Positions 1,305 to 33,359 of a stretch of 35,569 bases of DNA are shown piece after piece. Position numbers and translations under genes: made by a program. The number at the start of each line of letters is the position of its first letter. The stretch's first letter is position 1. This stretch comes from a virus. Taxonomy: Duplodnaviria; Caudoviricetes. A model generated the notes under the pieces. That model had not been told where the DNA came from and searched no databases. It saw nothing but the letters and a program-made list of their open reading frames with translations. The DNA lies in the IMG/VR virus record IMGVR_UViG_3300040971_000062, positions 1 to 35,569 of that record. One strand, 5' to 3'.

Positions 1305-3335
1305 ATGCCCGAATATCACAATAATACTTTGGTTGTAACATACGACGAGCTTATTCCAGAGCTCATGTCATATGAGGCACTAAAGAAAGCTCTCACCAGA
1401 GCCAAAAAACGCAAATACGGTATTACAACCTTACAGCGCGGAGGCGGTTTAAATCATAAGTCATTAATTCTATTCGACAGCCTCCCGGCTAACATCCGCG
1501 AAAAGCTCGACGATCCTCGCAGGGCAGCGCATCCGCTTGATCAGTTCTTTGCGGTTGACTTTATGGCCATTGATTGGTATAATGATTACCGGCTCGACGA
1601 TGGCTCAAGCCTGAGCGATGAGGCTAAAGATAAGTACATTGCAAATGCTTCACTATTGAACGCCTGCAAAATGCTTAAGGAAGCCCGCGAAAGGCAGCGC
1701 ATAAGCCAGGGCGGAAGTACCCGCGGAGTTTTACAAACCATTTGGGAGGACTCAGTAAGCTTTATTCCTGAAATGCGCAAGCGTTATGCTCTTGAAGCAA
1801 GCCTGCCGGGAGCTTACCCGCGATGGGTTGAAACTTACAACAGATTTCACCAGCAGAGTTATATTAGCCTGGTATCGAAAAAGCACGGCAACGCAAATGC
1901 TTCAAAATCGTCGAATGAGCTTGTTAAATTGCTCAACGATATGTTTGCCGGCCAGTCAAACAAACCAACCTTCGCGGAGATCAGCAGGCAGTATGAAGCT
2001 TTTATTACCGGATACCTTGAAGTGATAAACGGAGAAACCGGAGAAATGTATTCACCGGTTGGATATCCTGCCCTGAGCAGATCAACGATTTACAATTACC
2101 TGAATGAGTATGAAAGCCGGATAGGCACATTTGCAAAGCGCAGCGGCGACCGCCAAAAACTTATGGGCGCTTCTATTCCTTATCACTCTTTACTGCATCC
2201 TGAGTGGGCTGGCTCAATTATATCGATTGACGACAGGCAACCACCATTTGAATATGCAAAAGGGCAGCGCATGTGGTTTTACAACGGCATTGACCTGGGA
2301 TCAGAGGCTTTTACCTGTTGGGTTTACGGCAAAACTAAAGAAGGTATCATTTTAGAGTTTTACCGCCAGATGATCCGCAATTATGCGGAGTGGGGCTTTC
2401 AGCTTCCGGCAGAGTTAGAGTGCGAGAGTTCACTTAACAGCAGTTTTGCAGATACTTTCCTTCGCCCTGGCTACATGTTTCAGCATGTTCGCATTGAGGC
2501 CAATAATGCCCGCGGAAAGCGTATTGAGGCTTATTACAATCCTTTGCGCTATCAATTAGAGAAGAAACACGCTGAGTGGCTTGCACGTCCTTTCGCTTTA
2601 TCAGAATCAAATCAGGCCGGTCCCGAAAAAACAGAATCGATTCCATATGATAAGCTTGCTGATCAGTGTCTGGGCGATATTGAAACATGGAACAACATGC
2701 CGCACAGCATTTATAAGGATAAAACCCGCTGGGAGGTATTTTGTGAGCGCCAAAACCCAAACCTGAAGCCAACCAACTATAAATCATTTTTGAGGCATCT
2801 GGGACACAAAACACAGGCTAAGGTAAAAGCCGGTTTAATGAAATTTCAATACCGTGAGTGGGTTCTTGGTGATGATTCACAGGTATTCACCGGTGAGCGC
2901 CTTATAAACCTGATGAAAATTGTAGAAGGTGAGCAGGTTGATATTTATTACCTCGATGACAACCATGGCGGAATACTGAAAGCCCTCATCTACCTTCAGG
3001 ATACTTACGTATGCGAAGCCATTGCAAAACCTGTTTACCACCGTGCCACTATTGAAATGACCGAAGCCGATTATGAAGCCCGTGAAATCATGAGCAAGTA
3101 TGCGGTTACAATTGAATCGTTTCAGCGCCGCCAGAAAAACGCACTTGAGCCAGTTACCATAATCGATAATCGCCCGATTACCCTGAATAACAAATTTAAA
3201 ATCCCTGGGCGCAAAACACAGCCGCAAGTTACCGATCAAAAAGTTGAGATCATGCCTGAACCGGCAGAGGCTTTTGAAATCGATTCAAATGAGCTTCAAA
3301 GCGGATTTGTAACCAGTTTGAAAGATAGATTTTAA
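1305..3335 (+). CDS. Mu-like DDE transposase (MuA equivalent)
   Basis: 676 aa; acidic core motifs SIDDR, IDLGSE, LECES, GKRIEAYY, WNNMPHS; precedes an AAA ATPase. Confidence 0.85.
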   Translation: MPEYHNNTLVVTYDELIPELMSYEALKKALTRAKKRKYGITTLQRGGGLNHKSLILFDSLPANIREKLDDPRRAAHPLDQFFAVDFMAIDWYNDYRLDDGSSLSDEAKDKYIANASLLNACKMLKEARERQRISQGGSTRGVLQTIWEDSVSFIPEMRKRYALEASLPGAYPRWVETYNRFHQQSYISLVSKKHGNANASKSSNELVKLLNDMFAGQSNKPTFAEISRQYEAFITGYLEVINGETGEMYSPVGYPALSRSTIYNYLNEYESRIGTFAKRSGDRQKLMGASIPYHSLLHPEWAGSIISIDDRQPPFEYAKGQRMWFYNGIDLGSEAFTCWVYGKTKEGIILEFYRQMIRNYAEWGFQLPAELECESSLNSSFADTFLRPGYMFQHVRIEANNARGKRIEAYYNPLRYQLEKKHAEWLARPFALSESNQAGPEKTESIPYDKLADQCLGDIETWNNMPHSIYKDKTRWEVFCERQNPNLKPTNYKSFLRHLGHKTQAKVKAGLMKFQYREWVLGDDSQVFTGERLINLMKIVEGEQVDIYYLDDNHGGILKALIYLQDTYVCEAIAKPVYHRATIEMTEADYEAREIMSKYAVTIESFQRRQKNALEPVTIIDNRPITLNNKFKIPGRKTQPQVTDQKVEIMPEPAEAFEIDSNELQSGFVTSLKDRF

Positions 3336-3358
3336 TTCACCCATAACACACAAAAACA

Positions 3359-4246
3359 ATGGAAATCACAAAAGAATTCAAGGATGCTGTAGTTGAGGCC
3401 CTGATGTCTCAGCGCAACAATTATGACGGAACCGAGGCTTCATTTGCCCGCCAGTGGGGTATTAATGCAACCGTGTATAATGCCATGAAAAACGGCAAGC
3501 GCGATGGAATGCTCAAAAGCTCTCAGTGGCTTAATATGGGACGTGAGCTTCAGGTAGTGCCAGGTCAGCGCAAGTGGGTAACCGCTAAAACTGATGTTTT
3601 CAGAGTTATTGAAGAGGACATCACTTTTTGCAAGGATTATGCAAAAGCAAAGATTTGCGCCGATGAGTGCGGAATTGGCAAAACCCATACAGCTAAGTAT
3701 TTGAGCCGTACCCTTAAGAACTGCTTTTATGTGGATGCCTCACAGGCAAAAACAAAGGTGTTGTTTATGCGCCTGATGGCTCGCACTATTGGCGTTGATC
3801 ACACCGGATCATACGCTGAGATCAAAGAAAACATTAAGTACTACCTTTCATTTCTGCCTAAGCCCATTGTAATTATTGACGAGGCCGGAGACCTTGATTC
3901 ATCTGCCCTGCTCGACCTGAAAGAGCTTTGGAATGCTACCGAAAACGTGTGCGGCTGGTATTTGATGGGAGCTGATGGACTGCGCAAAAAGATTGAGCGC
4001 GGCATTGAAGGTAAAAAGGTAGGTTTTAAAGAACTCTTCAGCCGCTATTCTGAGCGCTTCACTTCAATAGTTCCATCAGGTAAGGATGATAAACAGGCAT
4101 TTTACAGGAAGCTTATAACACAGGTTTTGACTGTAAACATGACTGACACCAGTAACCTTAACAACATAGTGCGCAAGTGCCTCACTACCGATGGCGTAAT
4201 TGGCGGACTCAGGCGCGCGGAGAGCCTTCTTATACTCAATCAATAA
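3359..4246 (+). CDS. MuB-like transposition AAA ATPase
   Basis: Walker A (DECGIGKT), Walker B (IIIDEAG), LMGAD motif; follows the transposase. Confidence 0.85.
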   Translation: MEITKEFKDAVVEALMSQRNNYDGTEASFARQWGINATVYNAMKNGKRDGMLKSSQWLNMGRELQVVPGQRKWVTAKTDVFRVIEEDITFCKDYAKAKICADECGIGKTHTAKYLSRTLKNCFYVDASQAKTKVLFMRLMARTIGVDHTGSYAEIKENIKYYLSFLPKPIVIIDEAGDLDSSALLDLKELWNATENVCGWYLMGADGLRKKIERGIEGKKVGFKELFSRYSERFTSIVPSGKDDKQAFYRKLITQVLTVNMTDTSNLNNIVRKCLTTDGVIGGLRRAESLLILNQ

Positions 4247-8721: not shown

Positions 8722-9138
8722 ATGAGCGAAAACACACCAGAATACTCAATACAAAAGGCCTCAAGCGGAGAATTGCTCCCCGCACACATGATGCCGGCAG
8801 ATACTTTGTCAAGCCTTACAGCTGCCCTGCGCAAGGTAAAGCTTAAACTCACCATCAGTCAGCTCCGGAGCCTGGCAGTTATTGTGCAGATGCACGTTAA
8901 CCGGCAAAAGGCAAAGGGCTTGTTTGAGCTTGCCGATCTTTATGAGGCTTACCTTATCAGCGAGAAGCTGCGCAACAAAATGATCAGCGGAGCTACAAAG
9001 GTAAACATCAGCCTTAAAATGAGCGAAGCCCGCGCCCTTTACAACGTGCTCGATAATACCGAGTTTGCCCATTTTGCAGTTTATGAAAGTAACCTGGCAT
9101 TTTACATTATTTCTGAAATAGACAAACAAACCGTGTAA
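8722..9138 (+). CDS. Hypothetical protein
   Basis: Probable start at ATG 8722 (MSENTPEY), directly after the previous stop. Confidence 0.55.
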   Translation: MSENTPEYSIQKASSGELLPAHMMPADTLSSLTAALRKVKLKLTISQLRSLAVIVQMHVNRQKAKGLFELADLYEAYLISEKLRNKMISGATKVNISLKMSEARALYNVLDNTEFAHFAVYESNLAFYIISEIDKQTV

Positions 9139-9139
9139 T

Positions 9140-9367
9140 ATGAACGACTACAACTTAACACCTGAGCAGTACTTCGATTTAATGAGTGCAGGGCTCAAAC
9201 AGATAGCCCACGACGCAACCAAACTGCAAAGCGGCAACATTGCGCACCGGGCGGCTCAAATACGCGCCAATGCCCTGCAAATGCTTGATATTACAAACTC
9301 AATAAACCCCCTCGCGAATGGCGTACAACAGGAGAAACAAGCTGATGCAAATGCAGGACGTGGTTGA
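9140..9367 (+). CDS. Hypothetical protein
   Basis: Operon packing. Confidence 0.5.
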   Translation: MNDYNLTPEQYFDLMSAGLKQIAHDATKLQSGNIAHRAAQIRANALQMLDITNSINPLANGVQQEKQADANAGRG

Positions 9368-9524
9368 TGCCTATCTGGCAGCCAAAACTGAGGATAACTC
9401 AGTGTCTTCGGTTTACCGAAAAGTTATCCGACCCCGCTTTAGAATCAGCCGCACTACGCTCTACGCTTACCTCAATACGCCAATCAAAAAGCAGCTGAAG
9501 GAACTTGAAGGAAATGAAAAGTGA
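9318..9524 (+). CDS. Small HTH DNA-binding protein (possible middle/late regulator)
   Basis: SVSSVYRKVIRPRFRISRTTLYAYL HTH-like segment. Confidence 0.6.
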   Translation: MAYNRRNKLMQMQDVVDAYLAAKTEDNSVSSVYRKVIRPRFRISRTTLYAYLNTPIKKQLKELEGNEK

Positions 9525-9551
9525 AAAGTGAAAATTGAAAAATCTAAAACC

Positions 9552-10064
9552 ATGAAAACGCTAACCCTCATATTTGCCTGCCTCATTCTTGCATCATGTG
9601 TGGATGAGCCTGTTGAGCCGGAACCTCGCAAGGGTACGCCCTTCCAAAGCACACGCGATACCTCAACCTATAAAACTGGCCGCTACTACGGTACAATGCA
9701 CCTGCAAATACCAGGGCAGGTTGATGTTGTTAATGTGGCTTACCGCGAAATATTCCAATACCAGAGCAGCTACGTTATGCGCTGGTGGAGTGCCCCCGAT
9801 ACAACCAGCCTGGCAGCCATAGCCGATACACTGCGCTACACCATGACACATGATGTAACCAACACCTCATGCGGAGTGCAGCGCTTTGTTTATGACTACA
9901 CTGTTACCACTACCCGGCATTACGATAGCATCTTTGAGCATGGCTCTGTGCGCTATCGGTTTTACTTCAACGGCGCACTTTTAAAGGACCTGCCCGGTGA
10001 GTTTACCGCTAAGCTTAAGTTTGTGGATGGGCTTACGCCGCATAGGAATGGATGGCAGCCATAA
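9552..10064 (+). CDS. Lipoprotein
   Basis: MKTLTLIFACLILASC lipobox from ATG 9552, acidic residues after the Cys. Confidence 0.7.
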   Translation: MKTLTLIFACLILASCVDEPVEPEPRKGTPFQSTRDTSTYKTGRYYGTMHLQIPGQVDVVNVAYREIFQYQSSYVMRWWSAPDTTSLAAIADTLRYTMTHDVTNTSCGVQRFVYDYTVTTTRHYDSIFEHGSVRYRFYFNGALLKDLPGEFTAKLKFVDGLTPHRNGWQP

Positions 10065-10172
10065 CGTATAGCCGATGTTAATTGCAGGCTCTTTCGTTTC
10101 AGCTTGCAATTAACGGATAACGGCTATAAGAAGTAAAACAACTACCTCAAAAAACTCAAAAAACATTAGACG

Positions 10173-11030
10173 ATGAAAGTTTTAATATTTTACTCAGGCG
10201 GTAAAGATTCACAGGCTTGTTTGATATGGGCTGTAAAGGAATATGGGGCTCTGAATTGTGAAGCTGTATTTTGTGACACTGGATGGGAAAATCCGGTAAC
10301 ATACGAACATATCAAAACCACTACTCAGCAATTAGGCGTGAAGTTGGTTACAATCAAATCTAAAAAGTACGATGGACTTGTTGATTTGGCAGTCAAAAGA
10401 AAAAGATTCCCCAGTACAAAGGCAAGATTCTGCACAAGTGAATTGAAGTCTATGCCAGCCATTGATTATGTTTTGGAACAAACAGATCATGTAATTGTAA
10501 TTGAAGGAATAAGGGCTCAGGAATCATTTAGTCGGGCGCAAATGGAGGCTCAATGTACTTATTTCAAGTATTACTTTCAGCCCGGAGCGAACGGGAAAAC
10601 ACATACCTATCGAAAAAAAGATATAATTCAATGGTGTAAAACTTACAATGCTGATAAGGTAAGGCCAATTTTTGACTGGTCAGCACAACAAACAATTGAT
10701 TATATCAGAGATAATGAAATGCAGCCAAACCCGCTTTATTTCATGGGATTTCAAAGAGTAGGTTGTTTCCCGTGTATAATGTCAAGACATCAAGCAATCA
10801 GATTAATAATTGAAAATCACCCTGATCAGTGGCAATTATTGAAAGATGCTGAAATAAAAGTAGGACATACATTTTTCCCGCCTGATTACATTCCGAAATA
10901 TGCACAAGCAAATAGAAAGTTTGCAACTGCTGAAGATGTTGAAAAATACCTTGCAGATAGAAATGCAACGATGGATATGTTTGAAGGAACCGAACCAGGC
11001 TGTATGTCAGCCTATAATCTTTGCGAATAG
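10173..11030 (+). CDS. Phosphoadenosine phosphosulfate (PAPS) reductase family protein
   Basis: SGGKDS PP-loop, DTGWE, RFCTSELK, GIRAQES..R, RVGCFPC. Confidence 0.88.
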   Translation: MKVLIFYSGGKDSQACLIWAVKEYGALNCEAVFCDTGWENPVTYEHIKTTTQQLGVKLVTIKSKKYDGLVDLAVKRKRFPSTKARFCTSELKSMPAIDYVLEQTDHVIVIEGIRAQESFSRAQMEAQCTYFKYYFQPGANGKTHTYRKKDIIQWCKTYNADKVRPIFDWSAQQTIDYIRDNEMQPNPLYFMGFQRVGCFPCIMSRHQAIRLIIENHPDQWQLLKDAEIKVGHTFFPPDYIPKYAQANRKFATAEDVEKYLADRNATMDMFEGTEPGCMSAYNLCE

Positions 11031-11168
11031 TGGGAACTCAAAAAACTAAAGTTGTTTTATTTTTTATAGCCGATGTTAATTGCAGGCCGTACTTACTTTT
11101 TAAAGGCTTGCAATTAACGGAGAACGGCTATACGCTGCTTTTTATTAACTCAAAAAACCAAAATAACG

Positions 11169-11474
11169 ATGAAAGTATATGTAATAACCAAAATTTACGG
11201 AGACTACGAAGTTAGAACTGAATTAGATTCTGTATGGGACAATGAAATTGATGCCGAAAAGCACAAAGCAAAACTAATGGCGGATAACCAAATTCTTCGC
11301 ACAAGTCAACCACCTTACGAAGAGAATGATTATATGCTTGGCGAACTTTCTCCTGAGCAGGATACTGAGTTTTTCCTTTGGCAACAATCGAAGTATGAGG
11401 CAGAAGAGTTTCGTGAGCCTATGGTATCAGAATTTGAGTTGATGGGAGCCTCAAACCTCTCAAAAAAAAATTAG
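11169..11474 (+). CDS. Hypothetical acidic protein (cassette 2)
   Basis: MKVYVI start typical of small phage proteins; the stop codon overlaps the right arm. Confidence 0.7.
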   Translation: MKVYVITKIYGDYEVRTELDSVWDNEIDAEKHKAKLMADNQILRTSQPPYEENDYMLGELSPEQDTEFFLWQQSKYEAEEFREPMVSEFELMGASNLSKKN

Positions 11475-11583
11475 CGTATAGCCGATGTTAATTGCAGGCC
11501 GTACTTACTTCTTAAAGGCTTGCAATTAACGTTCCGGCGCTATAATTAGAAAGGCTTTTCTAAAAACTCTCAACCCTCAAAAA

Positions 11584-11820
11584 ATGGAAACAACACGAAT
11601 GAATAAAGTTATAATAGCAACAATCGGACTAAAGGTTAAGGTAAATCAGATGGATGCTGTTATTGATCAAATATTTGAAAACAGATTCATTTATTGCAGA
11701 TACTTGAACCCTGATAAATTTTCCGGTGATGGGTGTGCGACAACCGGAGGCATAACTACCGAAAAAGGTCAAATTGTAAAACACCCAAACTATTTTAAAT
11801 ATCAAACAATGCTTAATTGA
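11584..11820 (+). CDS. Hypothetical protein (cassette 3)
   Basis: Fits between arms 11537-11558 and 11840-11861. Confidence 0.6.
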   Translation: METTRMNKVIIATIGLKVKVNQMDAVIDQIFENRFIYCRYLNPDKFSGDGCATTGGITTEKGQIVKHPNYFKYQTMLN

Positions 11821-12001
11821 TGGTCTCAAAAAACTCAATAAAGCCTTTTTGATTATAGCGCTTGTTAATTGCAGGCCGTACTTACTTCTTAAAGGCTTGC
11901 AATTAACGTGGGGATATACGCAATAAGCGTAAAGCCCTGTTATTGCTGCAAAAGTGAAAACCAAAATGCGCGAAAAAATATGCGCAAGTTCAAATAATTT
12001 A

Positions 12002-12009
12002 TACATTTG
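12002..12009 (+). promoter_or_regulatory. Bacteroidota -7 promoter box TACATTTG
   Basis: Matches TAnnTTTG, ~20 nt upstream of ATG 12032, just after the repeat array. Confidence 0.5.
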
Positions 12010-12031
12010 TCAAAAACCAAATGATCGAAAC

Positions 12032-12277
12032 ATGAAATTTAAGTTATCAACAATCGGAGACTGCTACACAGACCCTGACAAAATAGAAAAGCTGGAGAAA
12101 ATTGGATTTACCTTTAAGCCCTCCACTTTCGCAATGTTTAATACCAAAACTTTTCACATTGAAGGCTCACCAGAGATTGAAATAAATACTTTGGAAGAGT
12201 TAATAGAATTTTCGAATACGTTTGGTGAGCTAATCGTAAGCGATGGCTCAATCGAAATTTACGATGATTATCGTTAA
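12032..12277 (+). CDS. Hypothetical protein
   Basis: Likely start ATG 12032; IEINTLEELIEF...IEIYDDYR motif recalled from small phage proteins. Confidence 0.65.
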   Translation: MKFKLSTIGDCYTDPDKIEKLEKIGFTFKPSTFAMFNTKTFHIEGSPEIEINTLEELIEFSNTFGELIVSDGSIEIYDDYR

Positions 12278-12287
12278 CCTCTCAACA

Positions 12288-12512
12288 ATGGAAAACTTAA
12301 AATACAAACTCTACAGGCGTTACCTTTCGGTTGCTGAAAGGGAGAAATCATTTATACATCCTGATGACCCCGCCGTTCACGTGGTTACAGTCAGGGTGAA
12401 ATATAATGGCGTTTCTATTGACATGACTGATAAAATTGAGGTGGGCAATTTGAGGAGGTGGGTTAACAGCAGCTTGAAGGAAATTAAAGAATTCATCAAC
12501 AAACACAAATAA
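12288..12512 (+). CDS. Hypothetical protein
   Basis: Probable start ATG 12288 (MENLKYK). Confidence 0.5.
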   Translation: MENLKYKLYRRYLSVAEREKSFIHPDDPAVHVVTVRVKYNGVSIDMTDKIEVGNLRRWVNSSLKEIKEFINKHK

Positions 12513-12533
12513 TTAATCTAAAACCTTAAAACT

Positions 12534-12734
12534 ATGTACTGCGGAAACTGTGGAACAAAAATCGAAAACACTCAATATTGCGGTGAGTGGGAACAAAAGC
12601 ACAAGGCTATAAAGCTCCTGAGCAGCAAGTTCAAACGCCTCCTCCAACCGGAGGAGGCAGCATTTCAAACTATATTATTTATAGTTGCAATAATAATGGC
12701 GCTTTACGGGATATCAGCTATTTTTAACAGTTAA
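12534..12734 (+). CDS. Zinc-ribbon-like small membrane protein
   Basis: MYCGNCG N-terminus, C-terminal hydrophobic helix. Confidence 0.55.
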   Translation: MYCGNCGTKIENTQYCGEWEQKHKAIKLLSSKFKRLLQPEEAAFQTILFIVAIIMALYGISAIFNS

Positions 12735-12738
12735 AATT

Positions 12739-13137
12739 ATGGAAAATCAAGAACCATATTTTGAATTGACGGCTTGCCCGGCTAAGATCAAAGAGTTTGT
12801 GGAGGATAAGGAAATCTGGCGCGATTTTCAGCAAACTCTAATAGACAGTCAAATGCAAGAAATATCTAAGCAGTTTGATGAAAAACTAAAGCTTTATGTA
12901 ATGGCTAACCTTGCAAAGCTGGGTTATATTTTCAAATCAGATAGTGAGCTATTTGAATTTGCCTCAAAAAGAATTACCCGGATAAAATTTGAAAGTAAGC
13001 CATTTTACACCGAGCTATATCTCGACTTTGTTGATGAAAATAATCGGGGCAAGCTTATTGGGTTTTACTCTGATAACACGGAGTATAATATTACACATAA
13101 GGACTTTCAGGCCATTCATCATATAAAAATTGGGTAA
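12739..13137 (+). CDS. Hypothetical protein
   Basis: 132-aa ORF ending at a terminator. Confidence 0.6.
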   Translation: MENQEPYFELTACPAKIKEFVEDKEIWRDFQQTLIDSQMQEISKQFDEKLKLYVMANLAKLGYIFKSDSELFEFASKRITRIKFESKPFYTELYLDFVDENNRGKLIGFYSDNTEYNITHKDFQAIHHIKIG

Positions 13138-13138
13138 C

Positions 13139-13174
13139 AAAAAAAGGCGAGCCAAACGGTTCGCCTTTTTTTTT
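13139..13174. terminator. Bidirectional intrinsic terminator
   Basis: A-tract-GGCGAGCC-AAAC-GGTTCGCC-T-tract between convergent operons. Confidence 0.85.
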
Positions 13175-13188
13175 GTGCCTGTTTTTTT

Positions 13189-13626
13189 TTAGCCGTATGA
13201 TTCTTCATGTGTTTCGGTAAATTTAATCACCTTCACGCTCAGGCTGTCATTGCGTATTTCGGGGGTGTACTCAGTAATATAAAGCATACCGAAGGCCTGC
13301 TCACTCTCGAAGCCTTCGAGCGCATCGCGCACAGCATCGGCAACATCCATCTTTGCCAGCGTGCGATCAACTGCCTGCTCATTAGCCATTGCTGAGCGAT
13401 CGGCAAGCCTGTCATACGCTACCCTTACCGTAATGGTTCCCCTTACATCGTATTGCGATCCTCCCAGTGGTGTATGCAGCTGGCTAACTGTTACCAGGGC
13501 GCAGGGAAATTTAACCGCCGGTTGCTGCCCTTCAGGCAGGTCTATTTGTCCAAAATCCTCATCAACCCAGGCAATGCCTGAAGCTGTTTTTATTTGGGTA
13601 AAAAGTGCTTTAAAAGTTGCTTTCAT
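13189..13626 (-). CDS. Putative tail terminator / Mu gp37-like protein
   Basis: WVDEDFGQID...PAVKFPCALV motif; last gene of the head operon. Confidence 0.55.
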   Translation of the reverse strand: MKATFKALFTQIKTASGIAWVDEDFGQIDLPEGQQPAVKFPCALVTVSQLHTPLGGSQYDVRGTITVRVAYDRLADRSAMANEQAVDRTLAKMDVADAVRDALEGFESEQAFGMLYITEYTPEIRNDSLSVKVIKFTETHEESYG

Positions 13627-31840: not shown

Positions 31841-33160
31841 ATGTTGAAAGAAATGGCAATCAGCTGCGCGAGGGGAGTCTCGCGCAGCGTTACACTTGGT
31901 TCAAGCTCCTTTGAAAATGAGTGGTACGGTGTTGAGTTTGATCAAACCGCCAGCGCGTCAACAATGACTCGCATTGGCAGGCTCGGGCTTCATGCCTCGC
32001 TTCCAATTCAGAGTAAAATGCAGAGATGCATTTTGAGCGCATCCGGCGTGGTTCAGTATTACCTCAACCCATCAAACTCATTGCTTAAAGCAGATGGCGC
32101 CGCCGCAGTTCTTGATGGCACAGATGGCCAGGTGATGGTTGAAATGCCAGAGTTTTATTATACGGTTGAGGCTGACGGCAATACAAGGCGCATCAAAATA
32201 TCAAAATACCCAATTGCCGGATTTTCCCTTTCGGGAAAAATGTACCTGGGCGCATTTGAGGGTGCAGTTAAGCGCTCAACCTCTCAGCTCATGAGCGTAA
32301 TTAACGCAACTGCTGACTTCCGTGGGGGCAACAATAACGCTGCATGGGACGCTCAGTCAAATAGCCTGCTTGGCAAACCGGCCACGGTAATCAGCCTTAC
32401 AAACTTCCGCGCTTTTGCGCGCAATAACGGGGCAAAATGGTCTGCAAGATCATACCTTTCGCGCGCAAAAATGAACATGCTTTATATGGTTGAATACGCA
32501 AACAGGCATGTGCAGGCATCTTACAATGAGGCATTGACTGCACAGGGGTATAAGCAGGGCGGGCTTGGAGATGGCGTAACAGCCGTCAACAGCACAAACT
32601 GGAATACCTTTTCAGGATACTACCCATTTGTCCCGTGTGGCCGTACTGTCAGCCTTGGCAATAAGTCAGGTTTTGTTAACTATGTGGTAGCAGGCTTTAC
32701 GGGCGGCGATATCACAGTCCCGGTTCCATCCTACCGGGGAGTAGAGCAGCCTTATGGTCACATTTGGGAGTGGGAAGACGGAATTCTTTACAATATACAG
32801 GCCAATGACGCCGGGGCCCAGTCTCGAATATTTATTTGTGATAATCCCGCAAATTATGCCGATATACTCACAAATTACAGGCAGGTTGGCTTGCTTTCAC
32901 GAAACGAAGGTTATATAACCAGGTGCTTATTGGATGAGGGGCTTACAATTCCAACCGAAGCTACTGGCGGCAGCTCAACTACGCGCTACTCAGATTATTT
33001 CTATACATCTATTCCCGCGTCAGGTAGTAGCATCCGTGGGTCTCTGGTGTCTGCGGCTGCGATTGTTGGCGCGGCTGCGGGCCTCTTTTGCCTGAGTACG
33101 TATCGCGTTCCGGCGGATGCGGCTGCGCTCATCGGGTCTCGGCCTTGCTTCATTCCGTAA
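31841..33160 (+). CDS. DGR target protein, putative receptor-binding protein with C-type lectin (FGE-like) C-terminal domain
   Basis: GQVMVE.P.FY, YRGVE..YGHIWEW.DG, C-terminal IGSRPCF; carries the VR. Confidence 0.85.
   Translation: MLKEMAISCARGVSRSVTLGSSSFENEWYGVEFDQTASASTMTRIGRLGLHASLPIQSKMQRCILSASGVVQYYLNPSNSLLKADGAAAVLDGTDGQVMVEMPEFYYTVEADGNTRRIKISKYPIAGFSLSGKMYLGAFEGAVKRSTSQLMSVINATADFRGGNNNAAWDAQSNSLLGKPATVISLTNFRAFARNNGAKWSARSYLSRAKMNMLYMVEYANRHVQASYNEALTAQGYKQGGLGDGVTAVNSTNWNTFSGYYPFVPCGRTVSLGNKSGFVNYVVAGFTGGDITVPVPSYRGVEQPYGHIWEWEDGILYNIQANDAGAQSRIFICDNPANYADILTNYRQVGLLSRNEGYITRCLLDEGLTIPTEATGGSSTTRYSDYFYTSIPASGSSIRGSLVSAAAIVGAAAGLFCLSTYRVPADAAALIGSRPCFIP
33036..33149 (+). repeat. 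DGR variable repeat (VR)
   Basis: 114-bp copy of 33246-33359 with 20 mismatches, all opposite TR adenines. Confidence 0.95.
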
Positions 33161-33245: not shown

Positions 33246-33359
33246 GTGGGTCTCTGGTGTCTGCGAATGCGAATAATGGCGCGAATGCGGGCCTCTTTTA
33301 CCTGAATACGAATAACGTTCCGGCGAATACGAATGCGAACATCGGGTCTCAGCCATGCT
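33246..33359 (+). ncRNA. DGR template repeat (TR)
   Basis: AAT/AAC-rich copy 210 bp downstream of the VR, followed by CCCTGCCTCTTGGCAAAAA. Confidence 0.93.

What the first reader, a model, noticed from the sequence alone, without database searches (positions are those of the whole stretch)
10065..11920. 'Inside-out' cassette array: each gene is enclosed by its own inverted arms and joined by a conserved GTTAATTGC...GCAATTAAC hairpin
Seen: four copies of GTTAATTGCAGGC-loop-GCTTGCAATTAAC (starts 10077, 11075, 11487, 11864) separate three unrelated genes (units of 998, 412 and 377 bp). Beyond the core, the arm before each gene is complementary to the arm after the same gene: 10121-10143/11050-11072 (21/23), 11125-11136/11473-11484 (12/12), 11537-11558/11840-11861 (20/22). 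The arms covary: CGGCTATA/TATAGCCG in units 1-2, GCGCTATA/TATAGCGC in unit 3. Each has the same geometry, AAC + 6 nt + arm...gene...arm + 2 nt + GTT. Established: integron attC sites are AAC...GTT-bounded imperfect hairpins recombined as folded ssDNA, but there the gene lies outside the hairpin. Inference: these are mobile single-gene units in which the gene forms the loop of an attC-like stem, a gene-capture/shuffling platform in the phage accessory region. No tyrosine recombinase or HUH gene is in the window, so the enzyme would act in trans. I do not know a named system with this layout.
Basis: partly seen in the sequence, partly recalled or inferred. Interest (0 to 1): 0.9.

Follow-up and report, generated by a model that had tools for sequence, protein, structure and literature searches.

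The report
Whole genes inside phage recombination hairpins
In this Mu-like phage three genes each sit inside the loop of an integron-type DNA hairpin while the usual gene slot is an empty mini-hairpin, which likely makes them swappable gene units and may show how such units get loaded with new genes.

Summary
The three AAC…GTT brackets (966, 374, 339 nt) match a family of covarying hairpin sites (mostly ~120 nt) in Bacteroidota arrays: 36/31/35 bits against 13 for the next pairing. The four 38–44-nt hairpins carry the family's cassette-closing helix, including its position-11 G·T, so they are empty cassette bodies. The layout really is inside-out.

New here:
- Phage G004 has unit 3's arms around different cargo, with borders at CTCA on both sides.
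- CTCAAAAAA lies at all six cargo borders and nowhere else in the window.
- The array ends in an attI-like site.
- A sister phage has a small XerA-like recombinase, lacking the IntI insertion, at the syntenic spot.

Recombination is not shown, and the contigs show no joint that skips a unit. Best reading (0.6): mobile units recombined in trans as single-stranded circles. This scan noted the layout before on other DNA; eight literature searches found no description. New variant of a known kind; interest 0.68.

The parts
10055..10076 (+). 5' end of array: core-like AAC followed by an orphan right arm (TATAGCCG, 10067-10074) whose left arm is missing
   Evidence: ranks 1st of 71,094 positions with a right-half matrix from 48 conventional sites; best left partner only 8.3 bits
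10077..10114 (+). empty cassette body 1 (38-nt GTT...AAC hairpin, own loop)
   Evidence: 10097-10114 is identical (18 nt) to the 5' end of the conventional array of phage G004
10112..11077 (+). site 1: attC-like bracket, 966 nt, gene in loop
   Evidence: 36.0 bits
10173..11030 (+). cargo 1: PAPS-reductase-family gene, 285 aa
   Evidence: PF01507 E 1e-26, phrog_424; homologues sit in an ordinary cassette slot in L006 and without arms in L005
11075..11118 (+). empty cassette body 2 (44 nt)
11116..11489 (+). site 2: attC-like bracket, 374 nt, gene in loop
   Evidence: 31.0 bits
11169..11474 (+). cargo 2: 101-aa gene of unknown function; last 7 codons and stop lie in the site's linker and arm
   Evidence: 10 homologues at 33-46% identity, matches ending at residue 90-94
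11487..11530 (+). empty cassette body 3 (44 nt)
11528..11866 (+). site 3: attC-like bracket, 339 nt, gene in loop; same arms hold other cargo in phage G004
   Evidence: 35.4 bits
11584..11820 (+). cargo 3: 78-aa ORF, no relative outside its own cluster
11864..11907 (+). empty cassette body 4 (44 nt)
11904..11927 (+). terminal attI-like site (TAAC + 6 nt + ATATACGC)
   Evidence: 23 of 24 nt identical to the 3' end of G004's conventional array; a like motif lies just upstream of the recombinase in 5 of 5 phage loci (by eye)
10146..10163 (+). CTCAAAAAA twice, left border of cargo 1
11037..11045 (+). CTCAAAAAA, right border of cargo 1
11149..11157 (+). CTCAAAAAA, left border of cargo 2
11459..11467 (+). 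CTCAAAAAA, right border of cargo 2
11576..11584 (+). CTCAAAAAA, left border of cargo 3
11825..11833 (+). CTCAAAAAA, right border of cargo 3

Best explanation
The array is three units of a Bacteroidota integron-like cassette system in which the gene lies in the loop of the hairpin site and the cassette slot is an empty 38-44-base hairpin, and the units are likely moved by a small tyrosine recombinase supplied from outside this record. Shown: site-family membership of arms and hairpins, terminal site, linkage of the family to the recombinase, cargo exchange between identical arms. Inferred: one unit is a site plus the following cassette body. As an excised single-stranded circle its sense strand would fold into a dumbbell: an 11-13-bp closing helix, the AAC/GTT core, a 6-versus-2 bulge and an arm helix of about 17-22 bp, with a conserved T opposite G at the outer end on each side. 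The enzyme would read only this stem, so either loop can hold the gene. Exchange would occur at an AAC core, with insertion at the 3' terminal site, the reverse of the class 1 orientation. Genes would be loaded into or swapped within the loop at the CTCA(AAAAA) borders by a separate, unknown step.
For: Stem-only model trained on 39 conventional sites scores the three brackets 36.0/31.0/35.4 bits; next best 13.0 of 24,919 pairs on + and 4.9 of 24,919 on -; leave-one-out family median 42.1, 10th percentile 25.9, minimum 7.3. Family stem: invariant AAC/GTT, both-side changes at 17 of 21 pairs, G·T at one position in 34 of 39; all three window units keep it in register. Cassette closing helix in 57 of 60 adjacent site pairs, position 11 G·T in 42 of 57 and T on the 3' side in 55 of 57; all four window hairpins have it. 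A site lies within ~1.5 kb of 9 of 30 chromosomal recombinase homologues and in 0 of 45 control loci. Sister phage L021 (72% nt over 10.8 kb) has the recombinase right before the homologue of window gene 12534. G004 shares both array ends and holds unit 3's arms around different cargo, followed by another empty hairpin with a different stem and similar loop. Circular folding predicts arm, core and closure pairs at 0.93-0.99 on the sense strand as DNA (equilibrium prediction only).
Against: No excision, circle or reordering was seen: no skipping joint in four contig sets of one sample, and no near-identical phage to compare. The side of crossover was not resolved (one informative inter-genome pair favours site plus downstream cassette, 10/10 versus 7/10; the G004/window pair differs on both sides). 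In linear context the hairpin's own core outcompetes the site core (site core 0.10-0.19). Long loops lower classical attC recombination by up to 4 logs under replicative conditions (PMC8946536, passages). The recombinase lacks the IntI insertion called essential for integron function. A family-type site of phage P12002L (attC1) did not recombine with IntI1. The training sites were picked by my own hairpin detector, so their covariation leans towards the structure. 21 of 30 recombinase loci had no site within ~1.5 kb. The 5'-most unit is truncated, a sign of decay.
Confidence: 0.6

Rival explanations
1. Stranded relics: ordinary family sites were filled by gene insertion through microhomology at CTCA(AAAAA), their cassettes lost their genes, and the long sites no longer recombine; the arms persist only because they are recent.
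For: No recombinase in the record; truncated first unit; loop-length penalty in classical attC; 0 true long sites among 53 chromosomal calls.
Against: Three different arm pairs each followed by the same empty body, and the same design in unrelated phage G004 with a different stem sequence that still pairs. Both arm differences between window unit 3 and G004 keep pairing on the sense strand (only two positions). Three independent fill-and-empty accidents are not parsimonious.
Confidence: 0.2
2. RNA-level modules: arms and hairpins are transcript helices (RNase III-type processing or stabilisation) that bracket early genes, and units move by homologous or microhomology recombination between the repeats, as proposed for T4 PeSL cassettes (recalled).
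For: G·T/T·G exceeds A·C/C·A on the sense strand (26 versus 9 outside the signature columns); own-arm pairing dominates in folded linear RNA (0.99-1.0); all genes and sites are co-oriented.
Against: At position 11 the T is fixed (55 of 57) while its partner varies (G 42, C 8, T 5), which fits protein recognition better than a wobble. Also invariant AAC/GTT cores, a terminal site beside a recombinase, recombinase linkage, and no Rfam match. Sense-strand folding is also expected for a reversed integron. The two roles are not exclusive.
Confidence: 0.13
3. Plain terminators, chance repeats or an assembly artefact.
For: Repeats break the assembly graph, so the order of units 2 and 3 is not independently bridged.
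Against: None of the hairpins is called as a terminator; 0 of 100 shuffles match; each unit lies whole on one contig; homologous elements occur in G004 and L014.
Confidence: 0.02

Closest known systems
Integrons (IntI, attI, attC cassettes; PMC2727003 and PMC8946536, passages read)
   Same: AAC...GTT-bounded imperfect palindromes with an unpaired spacer and a variable loop; cassette ends complementary; terminal attI-like site; Xer-related tyrosine recombinase.
   Different: Gene in the loop; empty cassette slot; 6-versus-2 spacer; paired G·T signature on both helices instead of single extrahelical G and T; 11-13-bp cassette closure; terminal site and recombinase at the 3' end; recombinase lacks the IntI insertion.
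Phage CALINs, notably Polaribacter phage P12002L (Qi et al. 2023, PMC9892861; section 3.4, passages and two supplement look-ups read)
   Same: Integrase-less array in a phage. The paper's attC1 has this family's geometry and lies at about 30056 in P12002L; my model other family sites there.
   Different: The paper describes conventional short attC sites tested with IntI1 (attC1 failed); no genes in loops or empty bodies in the parts read. P12002L's longest site (403 nt) holds most, not all, of an annotated HNH gene.
Archaeal XerA / XerC-D (PDB 4A8E, 5HXY)
   Same: Best structural-library matches of the linked recombinase, aligned end to end without the IntI insertion.
   Different: Xer enzymes act on double-stranded dif sites (recalled); here the partner appears to be a covarying hairpin family.
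Gene-less cassettes of Vibrionaceae superintegrons (10.1101/2023.11.21.568050, search listing only)
   Same: Cassette bodies without an ORF.
   Different: Here the body is only a 38-44-nt closing helix and the gene has moved into the site; not compared further.

Membership tests
Classical integron | intI gene next to the array | tested here: not met
   No tyrosine recombinase in the record; record estimated 55% complete
Classical integron | Integrase with the IntI-specific insertion | tested here: not met
   Sister-phage enzyme: 19 residues where IntI4 has 62; 164.5 bits against cut-off 265 for TIGR02249
Classical attC | RYYYAAC...GTTRRRY cores around an imperfect palindrome | tested here: inconclusive
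   AAC and GTT with palindromic arms are present, but the flanks are GCAATTAAC and GTTAATTGC, not the full 7-mer consensus
Classical attC | Extrahelical G and T on one arm | tested here: not met
   Arms pair without single-base bulges; a conserved T opposite G instead
Classical attC | Short site with the gene outside it | tested here: not met
   339-966 nt with the gene inside
Classical attC | Recombined as folded ssDNA by an integrase | not testable with these tools
   Needs a recombination assay
CALIN | Two or more attC-type sites without adjacent integrase, as detected by IntegronFinder or HattCI | not testable with these tools
   Programs not available; my own short-site covariance model misses these sites
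Bacteroidota integron-like hairpin family (defined here from 39 sites) | AAC-N6-arm...arm-N2-GTT stem with G·T in fixed register | tested here: met
Bacteroidota integron-like hairpin family (defined here) | Cassette closed by GTT...AAC helix with T at position 11 | tested here: met
Bacteroidota integron-like hairpin family (defined here) | 3' terminal TAAC-N6-WTRTA site | tested here: met
   (motif judged by eye)
Rfam RNA families (including Flavo-1, recalled as a lead) | Match at gathering score | tested here: not met
   Nothing on window 9000-13500 nor on the short sites in five array loci
Intrinsic terminator | Stem followed by a T run | tested here: not met

The most novel reading that the evidence does not exclude
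The site loop is a dedicated gene-loading slot: a reusable frame (arms plus empty body) takes up or swaps whole genes at a short CTCA(AAAAA) motif and is then shuffled by a small XerA-like recombinase that needs no IntI insertion. The array would be a snapshot of how new gene cassettes are made.
Probability: 0.3. Interest if true: 0.87.

Novelty: new variant of a known kind. Interest (0 to 1): 0.68.

Why it matters
How new integron cassettes are created is stated as unknown (PMC4889954, passage). Here the same frame is seen with two different cargoes and exact borders, which makes a loading step testable. If brackets of up to ~1 kb recombine, hairpin sites have no practical size limit when DNA is single-stranded. 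Short-site covariance models would miss such arrays, as mine did. A recombinase without the IntI insertion would be a second route to structure-specific recombination. It would also explain how Bacteroidota phages exchange accessory genes such as PAPS-reductase-like and methyltransferase genes.

Tried and rejected
- Exact-pattern scans for the window's hairpin, junctions or arms in viral contigs gave nothing or chance hits.
- Metagenome and genome scans gave 9 loci. Only L014 has an arm before the hairpin; the other 8 were set aside.
- A pattern for left arm plus CTCAAAAAA matched 0 of 401 Bacteroidota genomes. DNA searches of the junction gave only short weak hits. No empty version of these sites was found.
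- CTCAA occurs in 0 of 90 short-site calls (overlapping loci counted twice), so a plain target-site duplication of a motif usual in loops is not supported.
- My recalled link to the Rfam family Flavo-1 was not borne out.
- Five long pairings (4 chromosomal, 1 in L127) were cross-pairings of short sites and were dropped.
- Covariance model R1 does not find the window's long sites.
- Cargo 2 was not found in cultured phages or in 401 genomes; cargo 3 has no informative look-alike.
- No RNA holder listed. Unit 2 is uncovered in run X4, which proves nothing. One loose contig end before 11916 in X3 was not explained.
- The crossover-side test was inconclusive.
- Literature searches found no report of whole genes inside attC loops; the library lacks most subscription journals, and bioRxiv supplements could not be seen.

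Full report
Context. The window is a whole 35.6-kb virus record, estimated 55% complete. It is a Mu-like phage: transposase and transposition ATPase at 1305-4246, head and tail genes from 13189 (50 of 107 listed ORFs scanned). The array (10055-11927) lies near the end of the early operon. A Bacteroidota host is inferred from the site family and from gene relatives, not shown.

Observation. All coordinates and arm pairings check out. Each left arm pairs best with the right arm of its own gene, and none has a short-range partner. Contigs of the probable source sample carry each unit whole; the order of units 2 and 3 is not independently bridged.

What family the elements belong to. A homologue of cargo 1 (56% aa) in phage locus L006 sits in the ordinary position, GTT...gene...AAC, between short AAC+6...2+GTT hairpins. 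A sister Mu-like phage, L021, is 72% identical over the structural region. It encodes a 278-aa tyrosine recombinase directly before the homologue of window gene 12534. In phage loci L048 and L049 conventional arrays end just upstream of this enzyme, and a TAAC-N6-WTGTA motif precedes it in 5 of 5 loci. Homologues at E<=1e-55 occur in 36 of 401 Bacteroidota genomes. A hairpin site lies within ~1.5 kb of 9 of 30 of them and in 0 of 45 control loci. In 20-kb regions, 8 of the 11 not pre-selected held at least one site.

From 33 loci I collected 48 short sites. I aligned the 39 of 117-127 nt and left out 4 shorter and 5 longer ones. They share invariant AAC/GTT, both-side changes at 17 of 21 pairs and a G·T in 34 of 39. 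They were chosen by a hairpin detector, so this leans towards the structure. No Rfam family matches them.

The window's brackets are members of this family. A stem-only model scores them 36.0, 31.0 and 35.4 bits against a background maximum of 13.0, and all keep the G·T in register. Ordinary cassettes are closed by a GTT...AAC helix in 57 of 60 cases, with a fixed T at position 11, and are 108-1932 nt long. The four window hairpins have exactly this helix but only 38-44 nt. So the gene occupies the site loop and the cassette slot is empty. In my sample this is rare: 0 true long sites among 53 chromosomal calls; among 40 phage calls, three in the window, one in G004 and one with a partial gene in P12002L.

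Evidence on mobility and loading. Phage G004 is not Mu-like by its gene content around these loci and has no recombinase. It carries unit 3's arms around a different 675-nt cargo of two ORFs. Identity to the window ends at CTCA on the left and resumes at CTCAAAAAACTC on the right. It is followed by another empty 43-nt hairpin with a different stem and a similar loop. G004's second, conventional array starts with 18 nt identical to window 10097-10114 and ends with 23 of 24 nt identical to window 11904-11927. In G004 the PAPS-reductase homologue (68% aa) has no arms. Metagenome contig L014 has an arm plus the same hairpin in another phage, but starts 58 nt upstream.

CTCAAAAAA occurs seven times in the window, all at the six cargo borders, with about one expected. 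0 of 20,000 linker shuffles gave it in more than two linkers. Homology of cargo 2 ends at residue 90-94, where this motif region begins, though homologue tails vary. Against a simple duplication, the motif is absent from 90 short-site calls and from six longer P12002L sites, and no empty copy of these arms was found.

Mechanism. Shown: anatomy, family membership, recombinase linkage, cargo exchange. Inferred: the unit is a site plus its cassette body. As a single-stranded circle it is predicted to form one continuous stem with a loop at each end (arm, core and closure 0.93-0.99 on the sense strand as DNA, 0.75-0.99 on the other). A fixed T sits at both outer ends, a pseudo-two-fold that suits a recombinase dimer. 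Either loop can then hold cargo, a wording I took from earlier notes of this scan. Classical long-loop sites recombine well only when delivered as ssDNA, so activity would need single-stranded exposure. Not shown: any recombination, the side of crossover, the source of the enzyme, or the loading step.

Comparison with what is known. It works like an integron cassette array but fails membership: no intI, no IntI insertion in the linked enzyme, no single extrahelical bases, and reversed orientation. The nearest published case is the P12002L CALIN. Its attC1 is of this family and did not recombine with IntI1, whereas attC2, whose listed sequence I did not match to the family, did. IntegronFinder 2.0 reports almost no complete integrons in Bacteroidetes.

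Papers seen: PMC9892861 (section 3.4, passages, supplement list and two supplement look-ups); PMC8946536, PMC2727003, PMC8138268, PMC9024848 and PMC4889954 (passages only); others as search listings. Eight searches found no description of genes in attC loops.

Earlier notes of this scan report the conventional system and the inside-out layout on other DNA, and one reports a different short boundary motif. One of them is marked as partly fallen and two read the layout as not integron-like. They are leads, not support.

Verdict. Real; a new variant of an integron-like system; interest 0.68. The most novel reading, a gene-loading frame, has probability 0.3.

Noticed in passing
window 10055-10065 and 11939-11949: The sequences just outside the array are complementary at 10 of 11 positions, and the terminal site continues as a degenerate right arm to GTT at 11939-11941, unlike the G004 terminal sites.
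   Followed up: partly
window 12002-12009: TAnnTTTG motif (recalled as the Bacteroidota -7 promoter box) just downstream of the array, before genes that occupy the place where the sister phage has its recombinase.
   Followed up: no
window 9528-10064 and L005:3306-3806: A lipoprotein-like gene (42% identity) lies next to the PAPS-reductase gene region in both phages; the window copy has a longer C-terminus that ends in the array's 5' core.
   Followed up: partly
L089:2775-4935, L005:2229-2542, L049:7547-7746: Many ORFs start inside a site loop and read through the arm and GTT into the next cassette body.
   Followed up: no
L126 (P12002L): 12 family sites of 54-403 nt, more than the published CALIN names; several of 187-219 nt hold a start codon and A-rich leader in the loop.
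   Followed up: partly
L091, L100 (G095): Two chromosomal arrays with near-identical 121-nt sites around different cassettes, reminiscent of Vibrio repeats.
   Followed up: no
L092-L110: In chromosomes the arrays mostly converge on the recombinase tail to tail, whereas in phages they lie upstream and co-directional.
   Followed up: no
run X3, window 11916: One contig has 45 unrelated letters before position 11916, inside the terminal site; could be another element sharing that site.
   Followed up: no
window 33036-33149 / 33246-33359: 114-nt direct repeat at 82% identity at the end of a tail gene.
   Followed up: no
window 13125-13186: Strong inverted repeat with A and T runs between the convergent early and late operons, likely a bidirectional terminator.
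   Followed up: no
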